A stretch of 64,000 nt of DNA from a bacterium (GCA_030430495.1 JAUIKM010000030.1:40-64039), one strand, 5' to 3'. Shown: positions 541 to 63,847, counted from the first letter of the stretch. Made by a program: numbers and translations. The notes: generated by a model from the letters alone, not told the origin.

Positions 541-830
541 TCTGTTAGCTGTTGATTTATATGGGCTTGTGGTGGCTCAACGCTGCAATGATTCAAAAGA
601 GGCCGTACTTCCCGCTAGATCAGGGGGCCACCCCGCCGCCGCCACGGGTCAACTCCTCCACGTTCAACTACACTCCTCCCACCCTGCTTCAGTGCAAGTT
701 TTTTTGAGTGATTTTCCGTGGATTTCGCACGCCGCATGCTGCGCGCTTCTGCCCCAAGCTTACATCCGTTCATCCAATCTTCACAGCGGAAAAAACTGAA
801 CGACGCGCTCAACGTGGTCAAACGGTCAAT
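541..830 (+). repeat. Dispersed intergenic repeat family 1, copy A
   Basis: Shares ordered blocks with copies at 32255, 37068 and 60765: GTTGATTTA, CTAGATC.GGGGCC.CCCCGCCGCC, CTCCACGTTCA, the hairpin CACT-CCTCCCACCCTGCTTC-AGTG followed by TTTTTTT, a GC palindrome CGCCGCATGCTGCGCG, and AAAAAACTGAACG...AAACGG. Confidence 0.8.
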
Positions 831-870
831 ATTCGTGTACAAACGGACCAGATATCGCACCGACGATGCA

Positions 871-908
871 AACAAAAACGGGATCCGACTCACTGAATCG
901 AATCCCGT
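871..908 (-). terminator. Rho-independent terminator downstream of the cyclase-family gene
   Basis: On the minus strand, stem CGGGAT/ATCCCG (902-907 / 879-884) is followed by TTTTTGTTTG, 26 nt after the stop at 934. Confidence 0.6.
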
Positions 909-1715: not shown

Positions 1716-3476
1716 CTACCCCGCTCTCTTCTGCCCCGGGATAGCTTCGATCAACCCGCGCGTGTACTCCTCGCGCGGGTTGTTGTAAATTTCTTCGGCA
1801 CTGTTAAGCTCGACGATCTTCCCGGCGCGCATCACCGCAATCCTGTCGCTGATAAATCGCACCACGCTCAGGTCGTGTGAAATAAATATGTACGTCAGAT
1901 CAAATTCCTCGCGCAAATTGACCAGTAGATTGAGCACCTGCGCCTGCACCGAAACGTCAAGCGCCGACACCGACTCGTCGCAGATCAGAAAGCGCGGATT
2001 CAACGCCAGCGCGCGCGCGATGCAGATACGCTGCCGCTGCCCGCCCGAAAACTCGTGCGGATAGTGCCGCCCGTGGTCCGGCGTCAAACCCACTCTTGTT
2101 AACAATTCATCGACGAAGTCCTGGCGCTCCGCGCGCGAAGACTTGATGTCGTGCGCCTCCAGCACCTCCAATATCGCGCCGCCTACTTTGAATCGCGGGT
2201 TAAGTGAACCGTAAGGATCCTGGAATACTATCTGCACGTCCCGGCGCAGTTCGCGCATCTGGTCCTTGCTGTAATCGGCCAGGTTCCGGCCGTCGAACAG
2301 AATATTGCCGCCCGTCGGCTCGATTAAACGCAAAATGGCGCGGCCCGCCGTGGTTTTGCCGCAGCCGGACTCGCCCACCAACCCCAGCGTCTCACCGCGC
2401 CTGACCTCAAAACTGATGCCGTCGACCGCTTTGACCACGCTGTTCTCTTTGTTAAACAGACCGGTGCGAATTGGAAAGTGCACCTCGAGGTTTTCCACGC
2501 GCAGCAGTTCGGTGCTGCTGTTCAGGTCGCTCCGGCGCGCCTCGGCTTCGCCGGACTTAAACTCCAGGCTCTGCAGAACGGCCTCCACCTGCGGCGTCTC
2601 GCCGTCAGGGTTTTTCAGGAAATCCGCCACGGTGGCGAGTCGTTTAAGTCGGCGCGTGCGCGGTGGACGACAGGCCAGCAGGCCGCGCGTGTAGGCGTGG
2701 CGCGGATCGCTGAAAATCTGATCGACCCGGCCGTATTCGACGACCTTGCCTTTGTACATCACGGCCACTTCGTCGGCAATGTCGGACACGACGCCGAGGT
2801 CGTGTGTTATAAAGATCACGCCCATGCCGTGGCGCTCGCGCAGTCCGGCCAGCAGGTCGAGGATGCGCGCCTGCACCGTCACGTCCAGCGCCGTCGTCGG
2901 TTCGTCGGCGATTAACACATCGGGGCTGCAACAGATCGCCATGGCGATCATAACGCGTTGTTTCTGGCCGCCGGAAAGTTGGTGCGGGTATTGATCGACA
3001 ATTGTCTCGGGCCGCGGCAGGTCGACTTCTTTCAACAATTCGATCACCTGCTCGCGCGCCTCGCGGCGTTTAAGTCCGCGGTGCAGCGTCAGCGCCTCCG
3101 CGATCTGGTCGCCGCAGCGGTAGACGGGATTGAGCGAAGTCATCGGCTCCTGAAAAATCATCGCCAGGCGGTTGCCGCGGTAGCGACGCATCTCCGCGTC
3201 CGACAACTTCAACAGATCAACTTCAGACTCGCCCTCGCGGCCGGAGTTAAACAGAACGCGCCCGCTGACAATCCTGCCGGGCGGCTGCGGTATCAGGCGC
3301 ATGATCGAAAGCGAAGTCACCGATTTGCCGGAGCCGGACTCGCCCACGATGCCAAGCGTTCGTCCGCGGCGTACGCTGAATCCGACGTCGTCGACGGCGC
3401 GCGTCACACCCTGGTCGGTGCGGAACTCGGTCACGAGATTTTCAAGCGTCAGGACGGCGTCAGCGGACTTGTGCAT
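1716..3476 (-). CDS. ABC transporter ATP-binding protein with two fused ATPase domains (DppD/DppF-type, YejF/GsiA architecture)
   Basis: 586 aa with two Walker A ([16 protein letters not shown]), two signature motifs ([16 protein letters not shown]) and two Walker B (LIADEPT, LICDES). No permease or binding-protein gene is adjacent. Confidence 0.88.
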
Positions 3477-3575
3477 GTGCGGTTGAACGTTTTAAACACG
3501 AAGATTAACAAGAGGAATTTGGAGCGCCGCAAAGCGGCATGCGGTCAGGTCATCTGAATCAACACAAACCGGCCC

Positions 3576-4904
3576 TCAGCCGAACAGCATGGCTTTGAGC
3601 CCGGATTTACGACGTGGACGCAGCGAACTGCCCGGATGAGACCGCAGGTAGAGATTGATAATCGCATCCTCGCACTGCTCGTAAAACTCCGGGTCAAAAT
3701 TGGCCTTGTGCAGTTGTTTAAGCACCTGTTCAATCGTCAGTTTACGCCGAATCCAATCTTCACAGATGCCGTGCCGATACCGAATGCCCATCAGGTTAAA
3801 ACCAATGACACACTCATCATTGTACACGATGCGTATCGCGCGCGCGCCGTCGGGATGTTCCCAGTACAAACTTTTCTCGCCCGGCGTGTCAAAGTTCACC
3901 AGGCCGTAGGTGTGGTATTCGATGTCAAAAAACTTGGCGGAGTTAAACAGAATGCCGCGGTCGTATTCCGTGCGCGTTCCCGCAATGGTCTTTGCAACCA
4001 CCTCGCCATGCATGCGACCCGTGTACCAGAGCTGCTCCAGGCGATTGCGCTCATCGGGGTTTTCAACGACAATTTCCGCACAGTCGCCAATCGAATACAC
4101 ATTCGGGATATTGGTCTCAAAGAAGTCGTTAACCAGCACGCCACGACCGCATTTGATGTTCGAGCTTTTAACAAAGTCGATGTTCGGGTGCACGCCCGCC
4201 GTCAGCGCTACAAACTCACACTCAACTTCGTCGCCCGAGCTTGTTTTAACGGCCCGAACGCGACCGCGATCGTCGGCAAGTATTTCCTGCAGTTCAACGC
4301 CCAGGCGCAGGTCGACGTGATGTTTAAAAATATGGCGCGTCACCATATTCGATTCTTCGTCGGGCAGAACGCGATTCCAGTACTTTTCCTCGCGCACCAG
4401 AAAGGTCACAGGAAGATCGCGCGAGAGCAGCATCTCCGCCACTTCAATGCCGATCAGGCCGCCGCCGACAATGACGCCGCGTTTAATATCGCGCGTATTG
4501 TGCTCCATCAATTCAAGGTCCTGCAGCGAGTACAGGCCCTGCACGCCTTCCAGATCCTGCCCCGGCCAACCGAACTTGTTGGGCCGCGAGCCGCTGGCAA
4601 TAATTAACACATCGTATAAAACATGGCGGCCGGAAAGCAGTGTTAAACGCCGCTTGTCCGTATCGATTTCCGTCACGGTATCGCGCACGAGCTCGATGCG
4701 GTTTTTCTCCCAGAAAAAATCTTCGTAGGGTTTGGTGTTTTCGTATTTCATGTGGCCCATGTAAATGTACATGAGCGCCGGCCGCGAATAAAAGTGATCT
4801 GATTCGGCCGAGATAATCTGGATGTCGTAATCGGAGTATTTGCGGACATAACGCGCAGCCGTCACTCCCGCTATTCCGTTGCCGATAATTACGACGCGTT
4901 TCAT
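3576..4904 (-). CDS. NAD(P)/FAD-dependent pyridine nucleotide-disulfide-type oxidoreductase
   Basis: 442 aa from ATG 4904 (MKRVVIIGNGIAG). Second dinucleotide fold GVIVGGGLIGIEVAE. GDCAE motif near the C-terminal FAD region. Confidence 0.72.
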   Translation of the reverse strand: MKRVVIIGNGIAGVTAARYVRKYSDYDIQIISAESDHFYSRPALMYIYMGHMKYENTKPYEDFFWEKNRIELVRDTVTEIDTDKRRLTLLSGRHVLYDVLIIASGSRPNKFGWPGQDLEGVQGLYSLQDLELMEHNTRDIKRGVIVGGGLIGIEVAEMLLSRDLPVTFLVREEKYWNRVLPDEESNMVTRHIFKHHVDLRLGVELQEILADDRGRVRAVKTSSGDEVECEFVALTAGVHPNIDFVKSSNIKCGRGVLVNDFFETNIPNVYSIGDCAEIVVENPDERNRLEQLWYTGRMHGEVVAKTIAGTRTEYDRGILFNSAKFFDIEYHTYGLVNFDTPGEKSLYWEHPDGARAIRIVYNDECVIGFNLMGIRYRHGICEDWIRRKLTIEQVLKQLHKANFDPEFYEQCEDAIINLYLRSHPGSSLRPRRKSGLKAMLFG

Positions 4905-5031
4905 AATGTTAATCCCGCGTTGACGAGCAGTTTGTTTAAGTATTTTTCCCGATCGGCGCACTGCGCCTCTTTAAGAATTTCTTGTTTGTCGGCGCGCCCA
5001 AAATGTCGATTTGCGGCGTCAATGCCAAGTC

Positions 5032-6603
5032 TCAAATCTTTGAGTCTTCAGCCGGCCGCAAGACGTTCAGCCCGTGACAAACCAGCGCGACCACCAGCGC
5101 CAGGAAAGACAAAAAGCCCGGCAGCATCCAGGCCTCGGCGTCGGGTATGGTCCGCACAACGTGTACTATGGTGGCATACGGGTTCGGTCCGAATGCAATC
5201 GGACTGAATGCCAGTGGAATCGCGAGGAACAACAAGGCCAAAGCCAGCATCGCGATCAGCAGAAAACGCACGGGAATTTCGAGTGCGCGGCGTCCACGCA
5301 GCCACGGATACAGCAATAATGCGGCTCCGCCCAGTATCAGGGAGATCGCGCCGGTCGGCGTCGCCGCGCTTGCTCCCGCAAGGCGCAAAGGCTCCAGATA
5401 CCATGCCGGGCTTTGCGCCGCAACGATGACATATGGAAAGGGCGTGCCGGCCGGGACGATCTCGGCCCGCGTCTCCACCGATCCCGTCGCCGCCGCAAAG
5501 AGCAGGACAAACGCCGCAAAGCCGATCAGGGTTCCGATAGAGCGCAGGGCTGTATCGACGCGCACCGCATTGTCAATTGCTACCGTGTTTTCCCTGCGCT
5601 GAAGCATCAGCGTCAGGCCGATCGGCAGACAGACTGTTGCCGCACCAAGAGCAAATGCACCGATAGTGCGGGTGTGCATCCAATAAGCGTATGGGATCAT
5701 CAAAACGCCAAACGCAAGCAGCAGCCAGGTCAATCTGCCCGACCGCAAAAACCTCGAACCCTCCGTCTCCGCCGGCCGCGTCTCCCGGCGCATGAACAAA
5801 GCTACCGCCGCCAGGAGCAGCAAAATCAGCACCGGCAGCCACAGCGTATGCGCCGAAAACATGCGTTTAAGCGTTGCGCCGCTCACGTACGCGCCGCCGC
5901 TGAACATCTGCCCCAGCGCTTCGCCCACAAATGGAATGCCGCCGATATACGACGCCGCCACCGAAGCGCCCGCGTTGCCCGATGCCGACCACGGCAGCAC
6001 CGAGCCGCTGAAACCCATGCAGACCAGTAAAACACACAGCGCCAGCGCAACGTAATAACGCCCGCGAATGCCGCGTCGGCCCGCCGCAATCTCAAACAAA
6101 AGCGCCGTCAGATACAGCGGCAGAATGATAAACAACGCGCCGGTTGAATGCCGGTGAACATTGCGGATGTAAGCGCCGTAGGGCTGTTTGGCGTGAATGT
6201 CGCGCCAGACGGACAGCCAGGCCGCCGAAGGCGCTTCCCACAGCGTCGGGTTGCGGCTGCCGAAGTTAAACGTACTGTCGTGTTCAAAAATCAGGTAGGC
6301 TTCGTTCTTCAGCCCTTCAATCGGCGCGGGATGGCCAAAATACACGTGATTGTACGAAAAATACGGCCGCGGCTTGCCGTCGGGACCATATTCCGGCTGC
6401 GCCGAAGGTGTGTAAAACACGTGCAGGAACATGCCGCTCAGCGCGGCCGTGCACAGAAAAAAACCGATCAGAATTGCGCAGATGTTGAGCGGGCCGAGGC
6501 GGCCGGGACTCTCCTGCGTGCCGATTAACATGTCGCGGACAAGGCCCTGAGCGGGACGCGTTCCCGCTGTGGATGACGCCTGGTTTTGCGGTGTTTCGCT
6601 CAT
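5032..6603 (-). CDS. Cytochrome b-like polytopic membrane protein (atypical, see findings)
   Basis: 523 aa. Cytochrome b landmarks are present: WRDIHAKQPYGAYIRNVHRHSTGA (helix B region), FSGSVLPW (canonical GYxLPW) and LKRMFSAHTLWLP (canonical RFFxxHxxxP). Many additional TM helices. The start overlaps the Rieske stop (ATGA). Confidence 0.7.
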   Translation of the reverse strand: MSETPQNQASSTAGTRPAQGLVRDMLIGTQESPGRLGPLNICAILIGFFLCTAALSGMFLHVFYTPSAQPEYGPDGKPRPYFSYNHVYFGHPAPIEGLKNEAYLIFEHDSTFNFGSRNPTLWEAPSAAWLSVWRDIHAKQPYGAYIRNVHRHSTGALFIILPLYLTALLFEIAAGRRGIRGRYYVALALCVLLVCMGFSGSVLPWSASGNAGASVAASYIGGIPFVGEALGQMFSGGAYVSGATLKRMFSAHTLWLPVLILLLLAAVALFMRRETRPAETEGSRFLRSGRLTWLLLAFGVLMIPYAYWMHTRTIGAFALGAATVCLPIGLTLMLQRRENTVAIDNAVRVDTALRSIGTLIGFAAFVLLFAAATGSVETRAEIVPAGTPFPYVIVAAQSPAWYLEPLRLAGASAATPTGAISLILGGAALLLYPWLRGRRALEIPVRFLLIAMLALALLFLAIPLAFSPIAFGPNPYATIVHVVRTIPDAEAWMLPGFLSFLALVVALVCHGLNVLRPAEDSKI

Positions 6604-7064
6604 ATCTGGTCCGCCGCGGTTGAATATTCCTCGTCGCGCAAAATCACGCGGCCTTCCCTCTCGGCAATGTCCAGGCGCAGCAGCGGTTTCTCGGGCGGCA
6701 GCAGGTTCACGCGGCCCTCGGCGTCAAAACGCCCGCCGTGGCAGGGGCAGACAAATTCGCTTTCGCGATTCCAGTTGACGATGCAGTTGGCGTGGGTGCA
6801 ACGCAGATCAAAGGCGCGCAGCTCGCCGGCGGCGGAGCGCAGAATGCCGACGGGGCGGTCGCCGTAGCTGATGCGGCGGTAAGAACCGGCGCTGAAGTCG
6901 GCCGCCGCGCCGATGTCGAGCGGAGCCAGTTTGCGGCGCTGCACCTGCGGTTTCAGGAACTTCCAGCCTAGCCAGGGCAAGGGCAGCGCGGCCAGCGCCA
7001 GAGCGCCGTAGAGTATGTTTTTCAGCAGCCCGCGCCGCTCTTCCGCCGTAGTTCCGTCCTGCAT
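6600..7064 (-). CDS. Rieske (2Fe-2S) protein
   Basis: Cluster boxes CTHANC and CPCHGGRF. N-terminal ERRGLLK plus a hydrophobic helix (Tat-like). ATG 7064 is preceded by GGGAG; the track ORF starts at an upstream TTG (7109). Translationally coupled to the cytochrome b-like gene. Confidence 0.85.
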   Translation of the reverse strand: MQDGTTAEERRGLLKNILYGALALAALPLPWLGWKFLKPQVQRRKLAPLDIGAAADFSAGSYRRISYGDRPVGILRSAAGELRAFDLRCTHANCIVNWNRESEFVCPCHGGRFDAEGRVNLLPPEKPLLRLDIAEREGRVILRDEEYSTAADQI

Positions 7065-7180
7065 GAATCTTTGCTCCCGCTTTGCCGAATCCCCCGCAAA
7101 AGTAGACAAAATTTGCTATTTTCGACGGTCCACGTCATTCCGGCTGACCGGCTTTCCCTGTCCATGAACGAACGCGCCTT

Positions 7181-7534
7181 TTGATGGCACATCGCAAGGC
7201 AAACAACAAACACAGCGACGCAACGGTCGACCCGCTCCGGCGACGCCGACGGCGGCGTCTTGCCCTTGCCGGACTTTTGCTCGTCCCCGTGCTGGCATTC
7301 CTCGTGTTTTCGAGTTACGGCCTTGGGTCGCGGCTGCGCCTGGAAATGGAACAGGCCGACATTCACGAGCGCATCGACGCGGCGCAGAAGCGGCGCGACA
7401 GCCTGGAAACGGCAATCGAACGGCTCCACCGCGACACGCTCTACATCGAACGGCTGGCGCGCGAGCGCTTCGGCATGATCCGCCCCGGCGAGCGCGTCTA
7501 CCTGCTCGATTCTGACGACGTGGATTCGGAGTAA
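7181..7534 (+). CDS. ftsB: Septum formation initiator family protein (FtsB/DivIC-like)
   Basis: 117 aa with a basic N-terminus, a single TM (LALAGLLLVPVLAFLVF), a coiled coil, and an IERLARERFGMIRPGE tail typical of the family. Confidence 0.7.
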   Translation: MMAHRKANNKHSDATVDPLRRRRRRRLALAGLLLVPVLAFLVFSSYGLGSRLRLEMEQADIHERIDAAQKRRDSLETAIERLHRDTLYIERLARERFGMIRPGERVYLLDSDDVDSE

Positions 7535-7545
7535 CAGACCGTCAC

Positions 7546-8529
7546 ATGCAGCAGACACCCGCAGCGACAAACATGGCGATAAGCTACGCCGGCATCGACA
7601 TCGGCGGCACGAGCATCAAGTACACGATCATGCGCGACGGACGGACGGCAGAAAGCCGCGCCGTGCCGACCCGAGCCGCGGAAGGCCCCGCGGCCGTGAC
7701 GGCGCAGGTAACCGACATCATTCGCGCATTGCGGGCGGAAGCGCCGGATCTGCGCGCCGTCGGCATCGGCGTGCCGGGCGTCGTCGACCCGACGACGGAC
7801 CTGATCGTTCAGGCGCCGAACCTCAGCGGCTGGACGGACGTGCCGCTCAAACGCGACCTGCAGGCCGCCGTCGACATCCCGATCTTTGTGGAAAACGACG
7901 CCAACGTCGCGGCGCTGGCCGAGCTGCACGCCGGCGCGGGGAGCGACCTGCGCAACATGCTCTACGTCACGCTCGGCACGGGCGTCGGCGCGGCGATCAT
8001 CCTCGATAAAAAACTGATAACCGGAGACCGCGGCGGCACGGGCGAAATCGGCTATACCATTGTCCGCGCCGACGTCGAATCGGCGGGAGACGGCCGGCCG
8101 CGGTGGCGGGCGGGCACCCTGGAAGAATACACGGGCCGGCGCGGCATCCTGGACCGCGCCCGCGCTCTTGGTTTTAGATCGGCGGACAACAAGGCGGACT
8201 ACGACGTACGCGACATCTCGATTGCCGCGGCGGCGGGCGATGAAATTGCGCTGCGCTGCCTGCGCGAGGTCGGCGCGGTGTTGGGCGTCGGCCTGGCCGG
8301 CGCAATGAACCTGCTCGGCATTTCCCGCGCGGTGATCGGCGGCGGAATTTCCCAGGTGCACGGCGCGTTGCTGGAAGCGGCGCGCACGGCGCTCCGGACG
8401 CGCGCCCTGCCGAGCATCGCACGCGAAGCCGAATTGCGCATCGCCGCCTTCGGCGCAGCCGCCGGCGTGCTGGGCGCAGCCTGGCTGGCGCACGACAGAA
8501 AGTGTGAAATCTCAAGTGGTTCTCAATAG
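7546..8529 (+). CDS. ROK family sugar kinase (glucokinase-like)
   Basis: N-terminal GIDIGGTSIK phosphate-1 motif, then VENDANVAALAE and GTGVGAAII motifs. The start could instead be the ATG at 7573. Confidence 0.8.
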   Translation: MQQTPAATNMAISYAGIDIGGTSIKYTIMRDGRTAESRAVPTRAAEGPAAVTAQVTDIIRALRAEAPDLRAVGIGVPGVVDPTTDLIVQAPNLSGWTDVPLKRDLQAAVDIPIFVENDANVAALAELHAGAGSDLRNMLYVTLGTGVGAAIILDKKLITGDRGGTGEIGYTIVRADVESAGDGRPRWRAGTLEEYTGRRGILDRARALGFRSADNKADYDVRDISIAAAAGDEIALRCLREVGAVLGVGLAGAMNLLGISRAVIGGGISQVHGALLEAARTALRTRALPSIAREAELRIAAFGAAAGVLGAAWLAHDRKCEISSGSQ

Positions 8530-31761: not shown

Positions 31762-31826
31762 CTGAGCGCTTCGCCACTTTGTTGCTGCGCACGGCAGCGG
31801 CTTGCTTGATTCTCTTGTTTGTCAAT
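31762..31826 (+). repeat. Dispersed repeat family 2, copy E3 (block 1 only)
   Basis: CTGAGCGCTTCGCCACTTTGTTGCTGCGCACGGCAGCGGCTTGCTTGATTCTCTTGTTTGTCAATG. Confidence 0.6.
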
Positions 31827-32254
31827 GTTCCACAAGCGCCGCGTATGTGCGCCAATACTGGTGCAATAAGGCCGGGAGGCGCATGACGACGAGGTTTTCG
31901 TCAACTGGTCCCCCGCAGAAGAATTACCAGGCGGAAGCAACAGATTCGGCGTAAGACTTCAGGTTGGCCCGCCGCGCTGCTATGCGGGTAGCTATAGAAA
32001 AGGACAGGCGCACAATTGCAGCCGGCCTGTTTTCGGCAGATGTGTTTACAGTGCAATTGAAGTATTTTCCCGGCCGACGGCCGGTTTTTGGCGGATGAAT
32101 TCGCGGGCTGAGCGACGCAGCGTCCTTGCGACCGGCGGTATTTTGCAGAGCGGTTTGCGGGGCAATTGAACCAGAGCGACTGAGGCAAGGCGTTTTTATG
32201 TGGAGCTGTTTTTGTGGAGTGCCGCGCGCAGTGTAAGTCTGAAGTCTTGTAGAA

Positions 32255-32520
32255 TTAGTTGAATATTCTTTTGTGAGATCAAAGGACCCACCCCGACACC
32301 ACCACCCTTCCGAGAACGATACCCACCAATATAGCTTCCCTTACCCGCTTGCGCGCGGGCTCGTTCAGCATGCCATCAAACCATGATCTCCACCCGACGC
32401 ACACGACCGGTCCGCGCGCGTCGATCACACATTACGCAGCCTGTAATACTATTCCATGTCTAAAAAATTGAACGTAGCGCATTGCGTGGGTGAACGGCCT
32501 GTAAAGACTCTTGAACGGTC
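32255..32520 (+). repeat. Dispersed intergenic repeat family 1, copy B (most diverged)
   Basis: Keeps the flanks GTTGAATATT...GAGATCAAAGGACCCACCCCGACACCACCACCC and AAAAAATTGAACGTAGCGC...GTGGGTGAACGGCC. The centre has diverged but is still C-rich. Confidence 0.6.
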
Positions 32521-32628: not shown

Positions 32629-35600
32629 CTAGTCCAGCGGAGGCACCTGCCCCGGATTCACGACGCCAAAATTGGGCGTAAACAGCTGCACGAAGTCGTC
32701 GGCGCTGATGGAATTGTCGGCGTTCAACTCACCTGACAATGCGCCCAGGACGTCGCCGGGCAAATCTGTTAACCAGAGCAGACCGCCGACGACATTTGCC
32801 GACTGACTCAGATCAACATCCGCCGGACTGCCGGCCTCCAGCAAAACAGGCGCCGCGCTCGCCAGAGGAATGTGCCCTCCGTGGCGAACGACAAGCCAGT
32901 AGCTGCCGTCGGCCAGGCCGTCAAACTCAAACCGAGTGCTTGCGCCGGTGCTGTGCAAAGCCGACGCGCGCGCCACGACGGCCGAAGTCGACAATTCGGG
33001 TCCTTCGCGCAATTCAAGCATGAAAGGCGTTCGTTTGTGTGATTCGCCGTTCCAGTAACCCTGGAAGTACACTTCAACGTCAACGACAATCTGATCGGGT
33101 GCGGATGCCGTTACAACGGCCTGTGTTGCGCCAACATCAAGCGTGAAGCCGACGCCGCCGGGCTGCGTAGCGCCGACGACCGCCGCAAATGCGCCGGTTA
33201 CCGACTCGTACTCCATGATGACAAACTGCGCGCCGTCGGCCGGAACAAAGCCGTCGATCAAAGCAAGGCTCAGTTCACCGTCGAGCGTCAGTACTCCCTC
33301 GACGATCAGTTTGTCAAAACCGCTGCCGGGTTCCACGCCGCCAATCTCTATCTCAATGGTCGATGTCGAAGTTAACTCGTAGTCGCTGCCTATTGTTAAC
33401 ACGCCCGGCGAACGGCCCGGGCTGGTGGTGCCTGCATTGGACGCTCCTCCCGGGATGACCGAAAAAGTACCGTTGCCATTGATGACAAAGTCGCCCGGCA
33501 GCAGGACCTTCTCATCTACTGCCAGGGTCAATCCGGCCTCAATCAATTCTACACAGGAACTTTCTTCGGTCAACAGCAGCATGGAAATATCCGGTACTAT
33601 CATTTCCAGGTTTCCGCCGGCAACAGAGACTTTGCCTTTTTGGGTAAACAGCATCTGACCGTCGAGAGTGAAAATTGCAACTGTCGCGGTTTCCATCTGC
33701 GGTTTGCCGTTGTACCCTATCAAACCACAGTTGACGATCTCCGTATTATCACGAGCTTCCACGAGATTGTTTGTGACCGTACAGTCAAAGTTCAGGGTCG
33801 CTCCTGTGTGATTGACCAGCTTGGCATCATCCCGCAGTTGAACATGTGCCTTGTTTGCGGCGCGATTTCCATTAGTCACCACGACGTTCTCATGTACCGT
33901 CGGCTGCCCTATTCTGGCATCTCCGAAGTTGTCGAACAAGCCGTTGCCCTGAAGTTCAATCACCGCCGCCGGATTGGCCGTCGTGGCATTAAACTTTCCG
34001 TTGTTTCTAAAAGTACCGGAACCGGAGGCCAACACAACTGATGTCGTAACCACCTTGCGAACTTCAACCCGCCCATTGTTGACAAATGCCGCATTGTTTT
34101 CTACCAGCACGGACGCTGTTGTTCCTTTGAATTGCGGCACAACATTGTTCGACGGTAAAACAAGATCTCTGAAGTCAACTTTGCCGTTGTTGATAAATTC
34201 CCCGGCTCCGCCGAGATTGATGTGACCTGACGGTTGGGACGGCACAACCTGCGTCTCATCACGTGGAAATAACGTGCTGAAATTAACCTGACCTTCATTG
34301 ACAAACCTGGCATTGTCTTTCACATCGACGCCGCCGGGAACCTGAGCTGTAAAGTTCTCCGGCTGCGGTGCTTCATCGGCGGGCTTGACATCAAACGTGC
34401 CGCCAAAACCATTGAAAAACCTCGCGCCACCGCTCAATTCAAGGCCTTTAAATTTCTCCACGACAACTGCCGCAATCGTCCGCGTTGGAGACTGAACAAT
34501 AACGGACCCGAAATTGTCAAACTTTGCGTTTCCATTAACCGCGATTCCGGCATTGGTGATAATCGGATTGGCCTTCTGCACAAAAGCACCGTGATTTGTA
34601 GCGACGACCTGACCCATGAAGTTAAACGACGAACCGGGCAGACCGTTGGAAAAGTCTATCTCTCCGTTTATGCCGTTGTTAAAAATTGTCGACCCTTCAA
34701 ACTCGACGCCGACAACAGCCCGCAAATTCTCAATCAGACCTTGGTTGCTGAAGTCCGCATCAACGAATTTCAACGTCGCCATAGTGCCGGGCACACCAAT
34801 CTTCACCATCCCTTTGTTGTCAAATTTCCCGTGAAACTCATTCGCGCTGATATTCACACTGCCAATAAAACCTTCCGGCGAAAACTGAACAACGGAATTG
34901 GGATCAATATTGACGTCGCCAAAGAATTTGTTCACGCCGACAACATTGGCCGTTGGAGCGGCAAAAGACAAGGACGCGGTGGTGTTGAGTTGTGATTGGG
35001 CAATTTCCACCACCGACGATGTGATCAGAATCGGATCGTTCAATTTGGAGAACCCCACACTGAACACTCCATCACCCTGAAAGACGGTCGCGGAAGTATT
35101 GAAAATATCCGCATTACTCAGGAATGCCGTCCCGTTATTGTGAAACACATTTGACGCCCCCTTGAAGAAGAGCTTGCCAATTGGCCCCTGCATCGAGATG
35201 GAGACTATTGCCGTAGTGAATGGGACATCGATGTTGCCAAAAGTAATCGGTGACGGCTTGACCATGTTTTTCACATCATTGTCAACGGAGAGAAAAGCAT
35301 CATCCCCCTTGATATTAAACGACCCTTTGGCGCTGTTGATAAATGCATCGGTAGCAAACACGCCGAGTGAGGCCGTCGTAAACACGTTCACACTGCCGCA
35401 GTTAGTGAATTTTGCGCCGTCTTCAAGGTCCAGATTACGTGCGTTAAACACACTGCCTTCCGCCGCCATCGAGTTGACCTCGCCCTGATTTTCAAACTCG
35501 CTGCCTTTGAATACAGCTTGCAGCACTGAGAAGTTAGCCGTCCCTTCCGTTCCAAAGTTGACCTTTCCCTCGTTCAGAAAGTCTGCGTTAAATTCAAAAA

Positions 35601-36780: not shown

Positions 36781-37067
36781 AGTTTAATCCGAATCCGTTG
36801 TAATAAAGACTACTGCTGTGTGATAGTGAGCCGCGCGGTTAAGTACCGATACAGCGGCGGGGCGGCCCGGAGGCCTGAGGAAAGGTAAAAACGCAAATTA
36901 CGGCTCCGAGCGGAGAGCGCCTGGCGGCGGTACGCTGGAGTTTATGGTATTACAGTGCTGGCGGGAATTTACGTAATGGCAGGCAAAAGACACAATCAGA
37001 CACAGAATCTGCCAGAATATCCGCGATTCATACCATTGGGTTCGGCCGGACCGGGCGTGGGGATGCG

Positions 37068-37335
37068 AGGTTGTTTAAGACTGGATATACCTCTGCGAGA
37101 TCAAGGGGCCCGCCTGCCCCATCGCCCGCCCCGCCGCCACCGCGAGTCTCCACCACGTCCAGACGCACTCCTCCCACCCTGCAACCAGTGCAGATTTTTG
37201 TAGGGCAAACGTCAGTCCGGCATAACACGGCGCGTTGCATGCGGCGCTCCGTGGTATGCTCCAGTCTACATCGAAACCACAATTTATCCTCGCGTAAAAA
37301 ATTGAACGCTGCGCTGAACGCATGTAAGCGGGCGA
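37068..37335 (+). repeat. Dispersed intergenic repeat family 1, copy C
   Basis: GAGATCAAGGGGCCCGCC...CCCCGCCGCCACC, CTCCACCACGTCCAGACGCACTCCTCCCACCCTGCAACCAGTGCAGATTTTT, a GC palindrome GGCGCGTTGCATGCGGCGC, and AAAAAATTGAACGCTGCGC. Confidence 0.75.
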
Positions 37336-37674
37336 TTTTTCCGCCTGAACGGACCTTGCGCTTCACGTCCGGCCCACAACAAGACAAGCGCCGCAGTCCA
37401 TCCGTCAAACCGATCTGCGGAGCCGGGAGCACTTGCAAATATCGCCGCAGTGTTTTTGTCGGCCGCCACGCACAAACGGCCCTTTTTCCGACTTGATAAA
37501 TCCCCTCTTGTTAGTCGGCGGGAGCGAAACGACCAGCCGCCGGGCTGCAAACCTCTTTCGTCTTCGAGCCCGCAAATGATCGGCCCCATTTTTGTTCCAT
37601 ATCCTCATCCGACAGGCGAATACCAGCGCAAATCAGATGTTCAACGCCCCCCGATCCCATCCAGGAGTACTATC

Positions 37675-59839: not shown

Positions 59840-60236
59840 GCGTGCAAGGACATCGATTGATTAAGAAATCACCTGCAATGAATCAGGCCAACTGCTAGAT
59901 ACAAAATAGTTTACGTTTTTTCAATTCATGCAGACTTCAGGTTGCAAGATACGACAAAAAACCATTGAGCCGCACGGAGTTATGAAAAGACGGGGTGATT
60001 GAAGTCGTCGGGATTCAAGCGGTGAACACAAGTCCGGGATCGGAGAGAATCACCGGAAGAATGGACATTTCTTGAGCGAGTGTCGGCGGCGGAGCAGCCG
60101 CGGGTGCGAAACAGCTGAGTCGGAGAGAGTGTGTTGTGGCCTTGCAGTCAGGAGCGACGGGAAAGGTTGAATAGTTGGCACCTTTGAACTACGGCACGTT
60201 TTGACCCACTGCATGTTTTCATCCACGGCACGACTT

Positions 60237-60583
60237 GAACAAAGGCGCGAACGGAACAAAGATGTGACTGAACAAGGGAGGCAGCGGAACCAAGGTGTGA
60301 CTGAACAAAGGCACGAACGGACAGAACCAGCAACAGAACAGAGCCGGCAACGGAACAGAGCCGGCAGCGGAACAGAACCAGCAACGGAACAGAGCCGGCA
60401 GCGGAACAGAACCGGCAGCGGAACAGAGCCGGCAACGGAACAGAGACGGCAACGGAACAGAACCGGCAGCGGAACAGAGCCGGCAACGGAACAGAGCCGG
60501 CAACGGAACAGAGACGGCAGCGGAACAGAGACGGCAACGGAACAGAGACAGCAGCGGAACAGAACCAGCAACGGAACAAAGTC
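60237..60583. repeat. 17-bp direct tandem array (consensus GAACAGAGCCGGCAACG), about 20 units
   Basis: There are 14 well-conserved head-to-tail units from 60336 to 60573 (GAACAGARMCRGCARCG), preceded by 6 degenerate 16-17-bp units from 60237. A period of 17 is not a multiple of 3. Confidence 0.93.
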
Positions 60584-60764
60584 ATGAATTGTACAACATG
60601 AAAGCAAACACAAAAACTGTAAAGGTCGACGTTCATCTTCCCAGGTCCTGCCGTCGAGCGGCGCGCCCATGCGTTTGGAGTCTGTCGGGAGCCTTTGGGC
60701 CGGAAGTAAAAAAGTCCTGGTGAGATGTTGACGGTGTTGGAGTCCGGAGAAGGCCGGAAAGACG

Positions 60765-61055
60765 TAAGTTGTTGATTTCACACGGGTTACGGCTTGTTCG
60801 ATGCAGGCGGGTTGATGAGTGGACGCACTTCCGGCTAGATCTGGGGCCCGCCCCGCCGCCACCTCGGGAAGCTCCACCACGTTCCAACGCACTCCTCCCA
60901 CCCTGCATCAGTGCAAGTTTTCTTGAGTAAGCCGGTCGCGGATTTCACGCGCCGCATGCTGCGCGCTCGTCAACAGCAAGCTTAATCACCCTGCAAACCA
61001 AATTCCACCGTAAAAAACTGAACGTAGCCCAACTCGTGGGTGAACGGCCCCTAAA
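60765..61055 (+). repeat. Dispersed intergenic repeat family 1, copy D
   Basis: Closest to copy A over about 290 bp: GTTGTTGATTTCA, CTAGATCTGGGGCCCGCCCCGCCGCCACC, the hairpin GCACT-CCTCCCACCCTGCATC-AGTGC (60889-60914) followed by AAGTTTTCTT, CGCCGCATGCTGCGCGC, and AAAAAACTGAACGTAGCCC...GTGGGTGAACGGCCCC. Confidence 0.85.
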
Positions 61056-61222
61056 GCTGTATAAACGGCAACGCCCAGACAGGCCGGGCGTCCCTGTTTG
61101 TATCTGAACTGCACAGAAGCTGCGCGTGCTCTTTTCGCAGCTCCACGCCGAGTTGTTTTTGCACCGAAGCCACTTGCCTGCCGAGCCGCTTGTTGACGTC
61201 GGAATCCTTAGAGGTGCGGTAG
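61056..61222 (-). pseudogene. Degenerate tandem duplicate of the pheT 3' end plus its terminator
   Basis: A 167-bp unit starting GCTGTATAAAC at 61056 repeats at 61223. Copy 1 retains DVNKR..QVASVQKQLGVELR (compare DVNKRIDKIVASVQKQLGGELR* in pheT), but the stop is mutated and the hairpin is weakened (ACGCCCAGACAGGCCGGGCGT). Confidence 0.8.
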
Positions 61223-61224
61223 GC

Positions 61225-61259
61225 TGTATAAACCGCAACGCCCGGACATGCCGGGCGTT
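61225..61259 (-). terminator. pheT terminator hairpin
   Basis: AACGCCCGG-ACAT-GCCGGGCGTT (61237-61259), 40 nt after the pheT stop, followed on the minus strand by GCGGTTTATAC. Confidence 0.65.
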
Positions 61260-61298
61260 CCTGTTTGTATCTGAACTGCACAGAAGCTGCGCGTGCTC

Positions 61299-63710
61299 TT
61301 AACGCAACTCCCCGCCGAGTTGTTTTTGCACCGAAGCCACAATCTTGTCGATGCGTTTGTTGACGTCGGCATCTTTCAGCGTGCGGTCGATCGCATTAAA
61401 ACGCAACGCAAACGCCACGCTCTTTTTGCCTTCGCCCAGCGACTCGCCTTCAAACACGTCAAAGACGTGCGCATCCTGCAGGATCGGTGCGCCGCCGCGT
61501 TCTATCTGCGCCAGAATGTCGCCCGCCGCAACAGCTTTGTCCACCACGAACGCCAGGTCGCGTTTAACAACGGGGAAAGGTGAAATTCCTTCCAACACGC
61601 CGTCGCGACGATCCAGTTGTTCAAGTGCGCTGAAATCAAGCACACAAACAAACACATCCTGCTCAATGCCAAACTGTCCGGCTACGGCCGAAGATATTCG
61701 ACCGGCATAGCCCACAACGTTTTTGCGTTGGTAAATCTGCACACAGTCGCCGCCGAACCAGGGCGCCGTTTCTGCTGCCGCTTTAACACGAAGTTTAACA
61801 AAGGCAAAACGCTCGATTAACGCTTCGACGACGCCTTTGATGTCAAAGAAATCGACATCGCGTGCCTTTTCACTCCAGCTGTCGGCGGCGGTTCCGCTCA
61901 GCGCGATCACCAGCTCACGGCCTTCGCGAATCCCGCCGATAAACTCGTCTGCATCTGCGTCGCGATTAAACACCTTGCCGATTTCGTACACACGCACGGC
62001 GTCCGCATCAAAGCGCAGGTTGCGTTCAACAACGCGCAGCACCGACGGCAGCACGCTGGGACGCATGATCGACAACTCTTCACCGAGCGGATTGGCCAGC
62101 TCAATCAGTGAATCCCCGCTTAACGCCGCAGCCGTTTTATCGATCTGGTTGGGCGTTGAAATCTCGGAGAATCCAAGGCTGCGCAGCCAGGCGCCTACTT
62201 CTTCGCGCATCGGATTCGGCCGAAGCTGCGCCGGCACGCGACCACTCTCCAGCGGCAGTCCGGAAACGGCGGCTTCCTGAATTGTTTCATAGCCGTGCAG
62301 CCGTGCAATTTCTTCAATCAGATCGGCTTCCTGCTCTATGTCAATGCGATAACTCGGCACGCGTACTGTAATTGAATCGCCGTCTGCCGTGATGACGTCG
62401 AACCCGAGCGCCGCCAGGTACTCGCGGGCCTGCTGTGCGCTGACGTCAACGCCGATGATTTCACATGCGCGTTTAACACGCACCGACACTTCGGCCGCCT
62501 CCACAGGCTGCGGATACTCGTCGATCACGCCGGCGAGAATGCGTCCACCGCCGAGTTCGGCCATTAATTGCGCTGCGCGATCCAGCGCATAGCGCACATT
62601 GTTAACATCCGCCCCGCGCTCAAAACGGTAGGACGCGTCGCTCTGAATTGCCAGCTTCTTTGACGTACGCCGCACGGAAGCGGGCTTAAACCAGGCCGAC
62701 TCTATAAAGACATTTTTGCTTGTATCGCTGATTTCGCTGTTCTGTCCGCCCATCACGCCCGCAATCGCCACGTCGCGCTCGGCGTCGCAAATCATTAACA
62801 TCTGCGCATCCAGGGTGCGCTCCTTGTCGTCCAGCGTCGTGAACTTCTGTCCTTCGGCGGCCGTTTTGACGATGATGTTGTTGCCCTTTAACTCATCCAG
62901 ATCAAATGCGTGCAGCGGGTGCCCGCACTCCATCAACACGTAGTTGGTGATGTCGACGATGTTATTCCGCGGGCGCAGTCCGACGGCTTCAAGCCGGCGT
63001 TTTAACCAGTCGGGCGATTCGGCGATCGTGACATCCTTAACAATTCGTCCGGCGTAACGCGGACACAGCTCCGTGTCGCGCAGTTCAATGGTAAATTGTC
63101 CGTCGATCGACTCCGCATCTTCCTGTAGTTTAAGCTCCGGCCGTTTAACGGTTTTGCCGTAGCGTGCGGCTACTTCGCGCGCGATGCCGATATGGGAAAG
63201 GCTGTCGGCGCGGTTCGGCGTAATCGAGAGGTCGATGGCTACGTCGTTTGCGCCCAGATATTCGGCCAGCGGCATCCCGATCGTCGGCTCGCCGTCCAGC
63301 ACCCAGATCCCGTCGTGGTCTTCGCCCAGCTCCAGCTCGGACACCGAACAGATCATTCCCTGCGACACAACCCCGCGCAGCTTGCGTTTTTCAATGGTAA
63401 ATCCCGCGCTCGGCACCACCGCCCCTTCGATCGCCACAGCCACGAACTGGCCGGCATCGACATTCGGCGCACCGCAGACGATCGTGCGGTTTTCGGCCTC
63501 GCCGACGGTCACGGTACAAACGGACAGCGTGTCGGCATCCGGATGTTTGATGCGCTCAAGGACTTTTCCGACAAAAAACTGGTCGAATTTGGCGCCGAGC
63601 GGAGTAACTTCCTCAACCTCGAAGCCAAGCATAGTAAGGGTTTCGGCCAGTTCCTTCACGGGAACATCTATATCAACGTAGTCTTTGAGCCAATCGAGCG
63701 AGATAATCAT
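61299..63710 (-). CDS. pheT: Phenylalanine--tRNA ligase beta subunit
   Basis: 803 aa. N-terminal MIISLDWLKDYVDIDV and tRNA-binding domain, then B3/4, B5 and the C-terminal FDX-ACB domain (VFDVFEGESLGEGKKSVAFAL). Confidence 0.95.
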   Translation of the reverse strand: MIISLDWLKDYVDIDVPVKELAETLTMLGFEVEEVTPLGAKFDQFFVGKVLERIKHPDADTLSVCTVTVGEAENRTIVCGAPNVDAGQFVAVAIEGAVVPSAGFTIEKRKLRGVVSQGMICSVSELELGEDHDGIWVLDGEPTIGMPLAEYLGANDVAIDLSITPNRADSLSHIGIAREVAARYGKTVKRPELKLQEDAESIDGQFTIELRDTELCPRYAGRIVKDVTIAESPDWLKRRLEAVGLRPRNNIVDITNYVLMECGHPLHAFDLDELKGNNIIVKTAAEGQKFTTLDDKERTLDAQMLMICDAERDVAIAGVMGGQNSEISDTSKNVFIESAWFKPASVRRTSKKLAIQSDASYRFERGADVNNVRYALDRAAQLMAELGGGRILAGVIDEYPQPVEAAEVSVRVKRACEIIGVDVSAQQAREYLAALGFDVITADGDSITVRVPSYRIDIEQEADLIEEIARLHGYETIQEAAVSGLPLESGRVPAQLRPNPMREEVGAWLRSLGFSEISTPNQIDKTAAALSGDSLIELANPLGEELSIMRPSVLPSVLRVVERNLRFDADAVRVYEIGKVFNRDADADEFIGGIREGRELVIALSGTAADSWSEKARDVDFFDIKGVVEALIERFAFVKLRVKAAAETAPWFGGDCVQIYQRKNVVGYAGRISSAVAGQFGIEQDVFVCVLDFSALEQLDRRDGVLEGISPFPVVKRDLAFVVDKAVAAGDILAQIERGGAPILQDAHVFDVFEGESLGEGKKSVAFALRFNAIDRTLKDADVNKRIDKIVASVQKQLGGELR

Positions 63711-63847
63711 GACGGCATCCGCAGTAAATCAGAGAAAACGCCCGGCAGTCGGCGCAGGGAAAGCTGTAAAAATACGTAAAAGGGACTGCCACATCAAAAA
63801 TAGTTTGCATAGATGCCGGGAAAGTAGTAAGTTGCTGTTCTATACAT

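What the first reader, a model, noticed from the sequence alone, without database searches (positions are those of the whole stretch)
60765..61055. Four-copy, same-orientation ~270-300-bp intergenic repeat family with a conserved C-rich (anti-SD-like) hairpin loop
Seen in sequence:
- Copies lie at 541-830, 32255-32520, 37068-37335 and 60765-61055. All are intergenic and all are in the same orientation on the given strand.
- Shared ordered blocks are: GTTGWTTTA; (C/G)(T/A)AGATC.(R)GGGGCC(C).CCCCGCCGCC.ACC; CTCCACCACGTYC; a 5-bp stem GCACT/AGTGC closing a loop CCTCCCACCCTGC..C, followed by a T run; a GC palindrome (CGCCGCATGCTGCGCG); and AAAAAAYTGAACG...GTGAACGGCC.
- The plus strand of the left half is strikingly C-rich and G-poor.
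- No transposase, terminal inverted repeats or target-site duplications are evident.

Inference, as alternatives:
(a) A multicopy small-RNA family whose C-rich loops (CCUCCC) could pair with Shine-Dalgarno-like GGAGG sequences, as C-rich-loop sRNAs do in Firmicutes.
(b) A non-autonomous single-strand-transposon relic (IS200/IS605-type PATE, or an omega-RNA-like scaffold), which would fit the strict orientation bias.
(c) A REP-like structural element.

Copies A and D each sit 180-270 bp to the right of an unrelated tandem-repeat array (1-272 and 60237-60583).
Basis: partly seen in the sequence, partly recalled or inferred. Interest (0 to 1): 0.62.

Follow-up and report, generated by a model that had tools for sequence, protein, structure and literature searches.

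The report
Regulator-switched G-rich small RNA gene family

Summary
The repeat family is real. A profile search finds all four window copies (E 1e-42 to 1e-62), and ten more lie in two related metagenome genomes.

The ordered blocks make sense on the minus strand:
- three direct CCGTT(C/T)A boxes spaced 21 and 22 bp apart;
- a T6 run;
- a TAnnYTKG box like the Bacteroidota -7 element;
- a GC-rich 5' hairpin;
- a short hairpin followed by an invariant 15-nt G-rich stretch (CAGGGUGGGAGGAGU);
- a G-rich 3' module.

The syntenic orthologue of copy A is 94-97% identical over this unit, against about 80% in the flanking genes. No reading frame is conserved. At least four copies in the relative are followed directly by convergent genes, so the units stand alone and are not leaders.

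The helices that are kept contain G·U pairs, which pair only on the minus strand.

My best reading (about 0.65) is a new multi-copy small-RNA gene family switched on by a LytTR/AlgR-like regulator. Folding energy is no better than shuffled sequence. Nothing matches in Rfam, plasmids or phages.

The parts
60815..61070 (-). Copy D: whole unit (operator, promoter and G-rich RNA body), read on the minus strand
   Evidence: nhmmer hit at 61069-60816, E 1e-62. Sequence; coordinates.
61060..61068 (-). D distal box, CCGTTTATA.
   Evidence: It sits 21 bp from the middle box. The original pheT tail copy has GCGGTTTAT at the same place.
61039..61047 (-). D middle box, CCGTTCACC
   Evidence: It sits 22 bp from the proximal box.
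61017..61025 (-). D proximal box, ACGTTCAGT, running into the T6 run (61012-61017)
60977..60984 (-). D -7-like promoter box, TAAGCTTG. The predicted transcription start is about 60972.
   Evidence: This position is a conserved information peak in 11 copies. The tRNA-fMet promoter in the same window reads TTTG-N20-TAAGTTGC. The start site is inferred, not observed.
60947..60966 (-).
   Evidence: The outer pair is G·U in D and A-U in L029, and the third pair is G·U in A. G·U pairs form only on the minus-strand RNA.
60902..60917 (-). D hairpin H2, CUUGCA-CUGA-UGCAGG
   Evidence: Paired in all nine copies, 97.8% of cells, with one compensatory C-G to A-U change in L006.
60891..60905 (-). Invariant G-rich stretch CAGGGUGGGAGGAGU. 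Its first four bases are the 3' arm of H2.
Evidence: Identical in 9 of 9 core copies and in L044.
60821..60863 (-). D 3' module: GGUGGCGGCGGGG, GGGCCCC, AGAUC, and the candidate long-range helix H5 (60846-60849 with 60821-60824)
   Evidence: This is the most widely shared RNA block; it is also present in B, L002, L016 and L033b. The H5 middle pair varies C-G / A-U / G-C / G·U.
60650..60814 (-). C-rich, G-poor tail downstream of the RNA body. Possible Rho-loading region or untranscribed spacer.
   Evidence: Body is 37-47% G. Tail is 30-42% C, and 12-19% G in 11 of 13 copies (24-25% in L005 and L009). Sequences.
597..848 (-). Copy A: whole unit. Boxes 838-846, 817-825 and 795-803; T run 790-795; -7-like box 755-762; invariant core 672-686.
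   Evidence: nhmmer E 1.7e-62. Coordinates. The orthologue L021 is 94-97% identical over idx -4..+195.
37070..37354 (-). Copy C: whole unit. Boxes 37344-37352, 37323-37331 and 37301-37309; -7-like box 37261-37268; invariant core 37167-37181.
   Evidence: nhmmer E 6e-59. It is 87-92% identical to three non-syntenic copies in the relative. Coordinates.
32255..32520 (-). Copy B: divergent member. Boxes 32510-32518, 32489-32497 and 32467-32475; -7-like box 32427-32434. It has a different G-rich body and the shared GGGUCC-UUUGAUC block.
   Evidence: nhmmer E 1e-42..
60237..60583 (.). 17-nt tandem array, about 230 bp downstream (in the RNA's direction) of unit D. It is probably not part of the conserved unit.
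   Evidence: Arrays also follow A (1-306) and L016.

Best explanation
Each copy is a stand-alone gene for a small non-coding RNA, read on the minus strand, together with its own activator-dependent promoter.

Order of parts, in the direction of transcription:
- three direct repeats of CCGTT(C/T)A, with starts 21 and 22 bp apart, so all lie on one face of the DNA helix;
- a T6 run;
- about 27 poorly conserved bp without a good -33/-35 element;
- a TAnnYTKG box (-7/-10-like);
- about 5-8 bp further on, the predicted RNA start.

Proposed mechanism:
- A LytTR-type (AlgR/AgrA-like) response regulator, once activated, is inferred to occupy the three boxes and recruit RNA polymerase to the otherwise weak promoter.
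- The RNA body is about 160-190 nt. If transcription runs through the C-rich tail to a downstream terminator, the RNA would be about 330 nt.
- The RNA opens with a GC-rich hairpin bearing GCAUGC in its loop.
- An A-rich linker and a short hairpin follow. They present the invariant 15-nt stretch CAGGGUGGGAGGAGU.
- A G-rich 3' module comes last (GGYGGCGGCGGGG, GGGCCCC, WWGAUC).
- The invariant G-rich stretch is the likely business end. It would either pair with C/U-rich sites in target RNAs or hold an RNA-binding protein.
- The many sibling copies would give a graded, amplified output of one signalling pathway.

Shown here: the family, its anatomy, its strand-specific pairing, its conservation above the neutral level, its non-coding nature and its independence from downstream genes.

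Inferred only: transcription, the start and end of the RNA, the identity of the regulator and the targets.
For: Operator.
- All 12 full copies have three CCGTT-type boxes. The distal-to-middle spacing is 21 bp in 12 of 12. The middle-to-proximal spacing is 22 bp in 11 of 12. The search pattern allowed 21-23 bp for both spacings.
- Information content peaks at the boxes (1.4-1.5 bits), the T run (1.9) and the TAnnYTKG box (1.3). It drops in the spacers (0.7-1.0).
- LytTR sites are 9-11-nt repeats separated by 11-13 nt (PMC4847170).
- AgrA boxes lie just upstream of weak promoters (PMC4227749).
- The AlgR consensus is CCGTTCGTC, with a footprinted site CCGTTCATC (PMC4787818). This matches the box here (CCGTTCAnC).

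Promoter and RNA form one unit.
- All 8 promoter-pattern hits in the related genome are followed by a homologous G-rich body.
- The 31 hits in other taxa are not.

Constraint.
- A compared with its syntenic orthologue L021 is 79-82% identical in the flanking gene and terminator. It is 94-97% identical from the proximal box to +195, and 69% beyond that.
- A third genome (L044) keeps the same unit downstream of the same gene.

Stand-alone units.
- Real convergent genes follow L005 (histidine kinase), L033 (DUF7619/DUF11), L029 (Cys/Met PLP enzyme) and L009 (DUF2064).
- In the relative, the orthologue of A is followed by a convergent ECF sigma operon.

Non-coding.
- The invariant core is read in all three frames.
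- The ORF from the shared AUG stops after 4-18 codons in three copies.

Strand.
- The kept helices H2, H4 and H5 hold many G·U pairs.
- They are 95% paired, against 42-56% when the partner is slid. Two pairs show changes on both sides.
- The tRNA-fMet promoter in the window reads TTTG-N20-TAAGTTGC. This supports the -7 assignment.
Against: - There is no transcript evidence. No RNA run holding the sequence could be listed.
- No LytTR-domain gene was found among the ORFs scanned in the window or in the relative's 8-kb loci. The regulator is therefore inferred from site architecture alone, and other regulators can use two-turn direct repeats.
- Predicted folding energy is no better than that of dinucleotide shuffles on either strand (mean z about 0 and -0.3).
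- Covariation is thin: 9 related sequences, 2 pairs with double changes.
- No canonical terminator closes the body in several copies (D, L009, L021, C), so the 3' end is open.
- Copies B and C lie upstream of co-oriented giant surface-protein genes, so read-through or leader roles there are not excluded.
- No target complementary to the core was found in the window.
Confidence: 0.65

Rival explanations
1. Plus-strand small RNA with a C-rich loop. A C-rich RNA would be transcribed left to right. It would end at the GCACU...AGUGC hairpin plus T-run, and its CCUCCC loop would pair with SD-like GGAGG sequences.
For: - On the plus strand a hairpin is followed by a T-run in A, C and D.
- The terminator scan picks one such site in copy C, 37179-37193.
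- Folding z-scores do not separate the strands.
Against: - No promoter-like site lies to the left of the copies on the plus strand.
- Strong conservation continues about 100 bp beyond the supposed terminator, through the GC hairpin, the -7-like box and the phased boxes. A plus-strand RNA would leave that unexplained.
- The stem is broken in L029 and L006 with no compensation.
- G·U pairs in the kept helices become A·C mismatches on the plus strand.
- In A the stem itself has an A·C mismatch on the plus strand and a G·U pair on the minus strand.
Confidence: 0.07
2. Shared promoter plus long 5' leader (cis-regulatory RNA) of the downstream minus-strand genes. Examples are the two giant secreted proteins after B and C, and whatever follows the arrays after A and D.
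For: - In the window every copy has something co-oriented downstream: a 1594-aa ORF, a 1383-aa ORF, and tandem arrays followed by the zapA-like gene.
- H5 plus a U-run could act as an attenuator in some copies.
Against: - In the relative at least five copies are followed within 0.1-0.7 kb by convergent genes.
- C-type copies there are 87-92% identical to C but are not linked to any co-oriented gene.
- The distances to the giant genes are 290 nt (C) and about 670 nt (B) beyond the conserved body.
Confidence: 0.1
3. Non-autonomous mobile or REP-like repeat. The family would have spread by transposition or recombination, and its conservation would reflect recent copying, not function. Any promoter activity would be incidental.
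For: - There are many copies.
- Only copy A has a syntenic counterpart among the copies recovered from the relative (the strict search pattern may have missed others). C-type copies sit at different loci in the two genomes.
- All four window copies share one orientation.
- Assemblies break at the element.
Against: - There are no terminal inverted repeats, and no transposase, TnpB or IscB domain appeared among the neighbours scanned. Target-site duplications were not specifically examined.
- The upstream edge is not sharp. Between close paralogues the boxes are kept while the spacers have diverged, yet the RNA body stays at about 90-95%. That is the pattern of selection, not of recent copying.
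- Copy A is stably syntenic in three genomes.
- The unit is about 255 nt and not palindromic, unlike REP elements.
- Nothing matches in plasmids or phages.
- Four of four copies in one orientation has a chance probability of 1/8.
Confidence: 0.1
4. A DNA-level element only. It would be a clustered regulator-binding or nucleoid-organising site whose conserved 200 bp act as DNA, with no functional RNA product.
For: - Folding energy is not above background.
- Several palindromic DNA motifs are present (GCATGC, GGGGCCCC, AGATCT).
Against: - Continuous conservation of 94-97% over 200 bp, with helices that tolerate G·U pairs, fits an RNA better.
- A -7-like box sits at a fixed distance from the boxes.
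Confidence: 0.05

Closest known systems
AgrA-dependent P3 promoter driving RNAIII (Staphylococcus aureus agr). Related cases, from my own knowledge: VirR boxes upstream of VR-RNA in Clostridium perfringens, and FasA/FasX in Streptococcus pyogenes.
   Same: - A LytTR-type response regulator binds direct repeats with a period of about 21-22 bp, just upstream of a weak promoter (PMC4227749, PMC4847170).
- The product is a regulatory RNA, not a protein.
   Different: - There are three boxes here, not two.
- The box sequence is AlgR-like (CCGTTCA), not AgrA-like.
- The RNA is unrelated in sequence.
- It is present in many sibling copies, not one.
- The regulator and the transcript are not demonstrated.
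- The lineage is an uncultured Bacteroidota-like group.
AlgR (AlgZ/FimS-AlgR) binding sites of Pseudomonas aeruginosa
   Same: The 9-mer consensus CCGTTCGTC, with a footprinted CCGTTCATC site (PMC4787818), matches the box consensus CCGTTCAnC found here at 8 of 9 positions.
   Different: - AlgR sites are often single or irregularly spaced and control protein-coding genes.
- Here three sites sit in strict 21/22-bp phase in front of non-coding units.
- No orthology of the regulator can be claimed.
Sibling small-RNA families controlled by one response regulator: Qrr1-5 (LuxO), RsmX/Y/Z (GacA), csRNAs (CiaR), LhrC1-5 (LisR). From my own knowledge.
   Same: - Multiple paralogous sRNA genes are dispersed in the genome.
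- Each has the same regulator-binding promoter and an invariant single-stranded segment that carries the function.
   Different: - Those families have 2-7 members. Depth in the source metagenome suggests about 20-50 here.
- There is no sequence or Rfam relationship.
- The functional segment here is G-rich.
Earlier notes of this scan on the same genome (e1-1505330, e1-1505328): G-rich small-RNA families with LytTR-type promoters
   Same: They reach the same inferred logic (a phased-box promoter driving a G-rich non-coding RNA, many copies, a C-rich tail) in other pieces of the same genome.
   Different: - Those families did not come up as look-alikes of this one in the sequence index. This is therefore probably a further family or a diverged branch.
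- The notes are unchecked AI notes, not independent evidence.

Membership tests
LytTR-type operator/promoter (AgrA, AlgR, VirR, BtsR class) | Two or more direct repeats of 9-11 nt separated by 11-13 nt, giving a period of about 21-22 bp | tested here: met
   There are three boxes. Spacing is 21 bp in 12 of 12 copies and 22 bp in 11 of 12. The boxes are conserved and the spacers are not. The definition comes from PMC4847170.
LytTR-type operator/promoter (AgrA, AlgR, VirR, BtsR class) | Repeats lie just upstream of a weak core promoter, with the proximal repeat centred near -50 to -60 | tested here: inconclusive
   The TAnnYTKG box lies 40 bp after the proximal box. This would put the box centre near -50. 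There is no -33/-35 match. The start site is only predicted (PMC4227749).
LytTR-type operator/promoter (AgrA, AlgR, VirR, BtsR class) | A LytTR-domain (PF04397) regulator is encoded in the genome and binds the boxes | not testable with these tools
No LytTR hit was found among the ORFs scanned in the window and in the relative's loci. Earlier notes claim such a gene exists elsewhere in this genome, but this is unverified.
Trans-acting small RNA gene | Non-coding: no conserved reading frame | tested here: met
   The invariant core is read in frames 0, 1 and 2 in different copies. There are early stops in L029, L009 and L033, and single-base indels between close paralogues.
Trans-acting small RNA gene | An independent transcription unit, not the leader of a downstream gene | tested here: met
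   Convergent, Pfam-confirmed genes lie directly downstream of L005, L009, L029, L033 and L021.
Trans-acting small RNA gene | A discrete transcript with a defined 5' and 3' end | not testable with these tools
   No RNA sequencing run holding the sequence could be listed. Terminator-like features are inconsistent between copies.
Trans-acting small RNA gene | Conservation above the neutral level, and structure supported by covariation | tested here: inconclusive
   Conservation is met: 94-97% against about 80% in the flanks. The structure is only weakly supported. Three short helices are 95% paired and two pairs have double changes, but the MFE z-score is about 0.
Any described RNA family (Rfam 15) | Covariance-model match at or near the gathering score | tested here: not met
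   Only two tRNAs pass in the window. The best sub-threshold hits over copies D and C have E of 2-5 and are far below the gathering score.
IS200/IS605 PATE or TnpB/IscB omega-RNA scaffold | Linkage to tnpA/tnpB/iscB somewhere in the family, subterminal hairpins at both ends, and sharp element boundaries | tested here: not met
   No such domains were found in the neighbours scanned. The upstream edge decays gradually, with only the boxes kept. There are no flanking inverted repeats. A genome-wide survey was not possible.
REP/BIME-type extragenic palindromes | Short (about 20-40 nt) imperfect palindromes, in either orientation, usually after genes | tested here: not met
   The unit is about 255 nt, directional and not palindromic. 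Its folding is no better than shuffled sequence.
C-rich-loop sRNAs of Firmicutes (RsaE/RoxS type) | C-rich motifs exposed in loops of the transcribed strand | tested here: not met
   The inferred transcribed strand is the G-rich one. The loop-closing stem is not conserved.

The most novel reading that the evidence does not exclude
One LytTR-type two-component system in this uncultured Bacteroidota-like lineage sends its output almost entirely through RNA. It would fire dozens of sibling genes for G-rich RNAs. Each RNA exposes the same 15-nt G-run, which contains an SD-like GGAGG, and is followed by a C-rich Rho-loading tail. Together the RNAs would act as a high-capacity sponge or pairing partner for a C/U-rich RNA site or an RNA-binding protein. 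The size of the family and the RNA-only regulon would be without precedent among response-regulator regulons.
Probability: 0.2. Interest if true: 0.75.

Novelty: new member of a known kind. Interest (0 to 1): 0.5.

Why it matters
Almost nothing is known about RNA-based regulation outside a few cultured Bacteroides and Flavobacterium species, and nothing at all for the lineage sampled here. A family of perhaps dozens of near-identical RNA genes, each wired to the same signal-responsive promoter, would be a clear and testable entry point. The boxes predict the regulator's site, and the invariant G-run predicts the functional segment. For annotation, it also explains why assemblies of these genomes break at these places, and why long spurious ORFs are called across G-rich intergenic DNA. 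If the reading is right, 'LytTR regulator activates a regulatory RNA', known from the agr, VirSR and fas systems of Firmicutes, is a much more widespread design.

Tried and rejected
Copy number, orientation relative to replication and the regulator gene could not be surveyed directly.
- Scan of JGI metagenome contigs with the RNA core pattern: four hits, all chance matches in unrelated G-rich DNA. The lineage appears to be absent there.
- Look-up of the window's own cyclase gene, to read DNA left of the window: not on record.
- RNA runs: none could be listed for copy D or for a C-type copy.
- Thermodynamic strand test: z-scores are about 0 on both strands, so it is uninformative.
- Pairing of the G-rich body with the C-rich tail: duplex energies are not better than with shuffled tails (mean z about -0.7). 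The apparent complementarity comes from base composition.
- Single-box PWM scan: 60 hits against 37 expected. Single boxes are not specific. Three-box phased arrays occur only at the four copies. One other pair of weak minus-strand hits lies 22 bp apart at 34650/34628 inside the 1383-aa gene and was not followed up. I therefore make no claim about downstream 'bracketing' boxes.
- Sigma-54 reading of TGG-N8-TTGCA in copy D: the other copies do not share it, so I rejected it.
- Small-peptide reading (a 40-aa ORF starting at the AUG in GCAUGC): rejected on frame inconsistency.
- Target search for the complement of the G-run in the window: only the elements' own antisense strands match.
- G-quadruplex reading: a canonical four-tract motif exists only in the C-type copies, so it cannot be the family's common feature.
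- Search for a LytTR gene beside the copies: none among the ORFs scanned.
- Plasmid and phage collections: no match.

Full report
**Observation**

The four copies are real.
- An alignment of the stated intervals gives 65% mean column identity, with long invariant blocks.
- The repeat finder links A, C and D over an 86-nt core, and links B to D over the right end.
- The 13-mer CGTTCANTTTTTT occurs exactly four times in 64 kb, once per copy and always on the minus strand, against 0.65 expected.
- A profile HMM built later from 12 family members recovers the four copies at E 1e-42 to 1e-62 and finds nothing else in the window.
- Copy B is a divergent member. It lacks the hairpin and CCTCCCACCCTGC.
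- Rfam has no match at gathering scores or at permissive thresholds over copies D and C.

**Which strand**

Read on the minus strand, the blocks fall into a familiar order.
GTGAACGG) become direct repeats of CCGTT(C/T)A followed by a T6 run.
- A third repeat lies just outside the stated right border.

I scanned one genome per species (genome contigs) for this three-box pattern and obtained 39 loci.
- Eight loci are in a single metagenome-assembled genome, CAYULF01. It is about 87% identical to the window where the two are syntenic.
- All eight are followed by a homologous G-rich body.
- The 31 hits in other taxa are not, and look like chance.
- nhmmer found a ninth, degenerate copy in that genome (L033b).
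- A third relative, found through the neighbouring cyclase gene, carries the orthologue of copy A (L044).
- A scan of JGI metagenome contigs with the RNA core gave only chance hits. The family therefore seems confined to this sparsely sampled lineage. The next cyclase homologue is only 64% identical.

**Promoter and operator**

- In 12 full copies the box starts are 21 bp apart (12 of 12) and 22 bp apart (11 of 12).
- Information content peaks at the three boxes, at the T run, and at a TAnnYTKG box 40 bp after the proximal box. The spacers and the 27 bp in between are poorly conserved.
- Between close paralogues (C, L005, L009, L033) the RNA body is about 90-95% identical. The inter-box spacers have diverged and the boxes are kept. 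That is a selection footprint, not the trace of a recently copied block.
- Repeats of 9-11 nt with 11-13-nt spacers are the general architecture of LytTR-regulator sites (PMC4847170).
- AgrA boxes sit just upstream of weak promoters (PMC4227749).
- The box itself matches the AlgR consensus CCGTTCGTC and its footprinted CCGTTCATC variant (PMC4787818).
- The tRNA-fMet gene in the window is preceded by TTTG-N20-TAAGTTGC. This is a Bacteroidota-type -33/-7 promoter, from my own knowledge of that consensus. It supports reading TAAGCTTG/TAGACTGG as the -7 element and places the RNA start about 5-8 nt further on, just before the 5' hairpin.
- T9SS sorting domains and DUF5683 in neighbouring genes fit a Bacteroidota-like organism.
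The regulator is inferred from site architecture only.

**The transcribed part**

- Copy A compared with its syntenic orthologue L021 is 79-82% identical in the cyclase gene and terminator. It is 94-97% identical from the proximal box to +195, and 69% after that. Identity rises again to 80% up to a conserved small hairpin-U site near +380, and then alignment is lost.
- No reading frame is conserved. The invariant core is read in all three frames, and the ORF from the shared AUG stops after 4-18 codons in three copies.
- The units stand alone. Pfam-confirmed convergent genes follow L005, L009, L029 and L033, and a convergent ECF sigma operon follows L021.

**RNA structure**

RNAalifold and explicit pair counts on nine core copies support three short helices.
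- H2, CUGCA/UGCAG, is paired in all nine copies (97.8% of cells), with a compensatory C-G to A-U change in L006.
- H4 is CYCGY/GCGGG.
- H5, GGNC/GNCC, is a long-range helix whose middle pair is C-G, A-U, G-C or G·U.
- Overall 95% of cells are paired, against 42-56% when the partners are slid.

These helices and the 5' hairpin contain many G·U pairs, which would be A·C mismatches on the plus strand. H2 is followed directly by CAGGGUGGGAGGAGU, which is identical in all nine core copies and in L044.

It shows no compensatory change and is broken in L029 and L006.

The limits of this evidence are clear.
- MFE z-scores are about 0 on both strands.
- Covariation rests on few, related sequences.
- The 3' end is open. 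Some copies have GYCC-AAA-UUUU, others have nothing, and several have a clear terminator 100-150 nt further on, after a C-rich, G-poor tail.

**Copy number**

Logan contigs of the source biofloc metagenome cover the flanks at depth 10-12.
- The core of D reaches about 218 (88% likeness or more).
- The core of C reaches about 560-935 (80% or more).
- Many short contigs end inside the element.

Summed depth is not a strict copy number, and it may include the co-occurring relative. It does point to some tens of copies. No RNA run could be listed.

**Verdict**

The best-supported reading (about 0.65) is a multi-copy family of regulator-dependent small non-coding RNA genes on the minus strand. They would be driven by a LytTR/AlgR-like three-box operator, and the invariant G-rich stretch would be the functional segment.

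This is the logic of agr P3-RNAIII and of sibling sRNA families such as Qrr or Rsm. Here it appears in a new, unrelated RNA family and in an uncultured lineage. Two earlier notes of this scan on other pieces of the same genome reach a similar picture for other families. They prompted the LytTR idea, and I tested the anatomy independently here, but they are not independent proof.

The rivals are each at 0.1 or below:
- a plus-strand C-rich sRNA;
- a shared leader of the downstream genes;
- a mobile or REP-like relic;
- a DNA-only element.

Noticed in passing
window 61056-61387 and 61060-61068: The distal box of copy D (GCCGTTTAT on the minus strand) lies inside the upstream copy of the 167-bp duplication of the pheT 3' end. 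The original copy reads GCGGTTTAT at the same place. A single base change in duplicated terminator DNA therefore seems to have created the third box. Logan contigs also show 'goes back 167' joints here, so the number of duplicated units may vary.
   Followed up: partly
window 60237-60583 and about 60235-60320 (minus strand): The 17-nt array downstream of D reads UGUUCCGYUGCCGGYUC on the minus strand and contains almost no A. It is followed by 2.6 copies of a 33-nt unit, TCCGTTCGCGCCTTTGTTCAGTCACACCTTGGT. Both units contain CCGTT-type words that resemble the operator box, but they score below the box matrix. Tandem arrays also follow copy A (102 nt x 3, positions 1-306) and L016 (9 nt, GCGTCATCC, many copies). 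Three of 14 copies are thus followed by arrays.
   Followed up: partly
L033 2739-2998 and 6078-6339, with genes 3243-5612(-) and 6634-7902(-): In the relative, two family members lie 3.3 kb apart in the same orientation. Each is followed by a convergent gene for a DUF7619/DUF11 surface protein, and one of these has a T9SS sorting tail. This looks like a duplicated module of RNA gene plus surface-protein gene. The second RNA copy has lost the proximal box and the T-run.
   Followed up: partly
window 63780-63847: The tRNA-fMet gene is preceded by TTTG-N20-TAAGTTGC. This is a good match to the Bacteroidota -33/-7 promoter type and a useful calibration for promoter calls in this genome.
   Followed up: no
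L002 idx +312..+350 and L006 idx +340..+378 (downstream of the RNA bodies); window 31797-31829: The genus-specific terminator-like repeat (hairpin followed by GGCTTGTTTTTT..TTGTTTGTC), noted by earlier readers, closes the L002 and L006 units in the sense orientation. It may be the true 3' end of the longer transcripts.
   Followed up: no
window 60050-60901(-), 615-893(-), 37028-37438(-): Long ORFs (92-283 aa) run across the elements and the arrays only because G/C-rich, stop-poor sequence stays open. They have no Pfam hits and should not be annotated as genes.
   Followed up: partly
window 734-739, 37237-37242, 60954-60959: The self-complementary hexamer GCAUGC sits in the apical loop of the 5' hairpin in the A-, C- and D-type copies. 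It could allow loop-loop pairing between sibling RNAs, or it could be a DNA-level palindromic site just after the start point.
   Followed up: no
record title of CAYULF01 (loci L002-L033, L045): The related MAG is labelled 'uncultured Hyphomicrobiales'. Its genes (T9SS sorting tails, DUF5683, Bacteroidota-like cyclase homologues) point to a Bacteroidota-like organism, so the label looks wrong.
   Followed up: no
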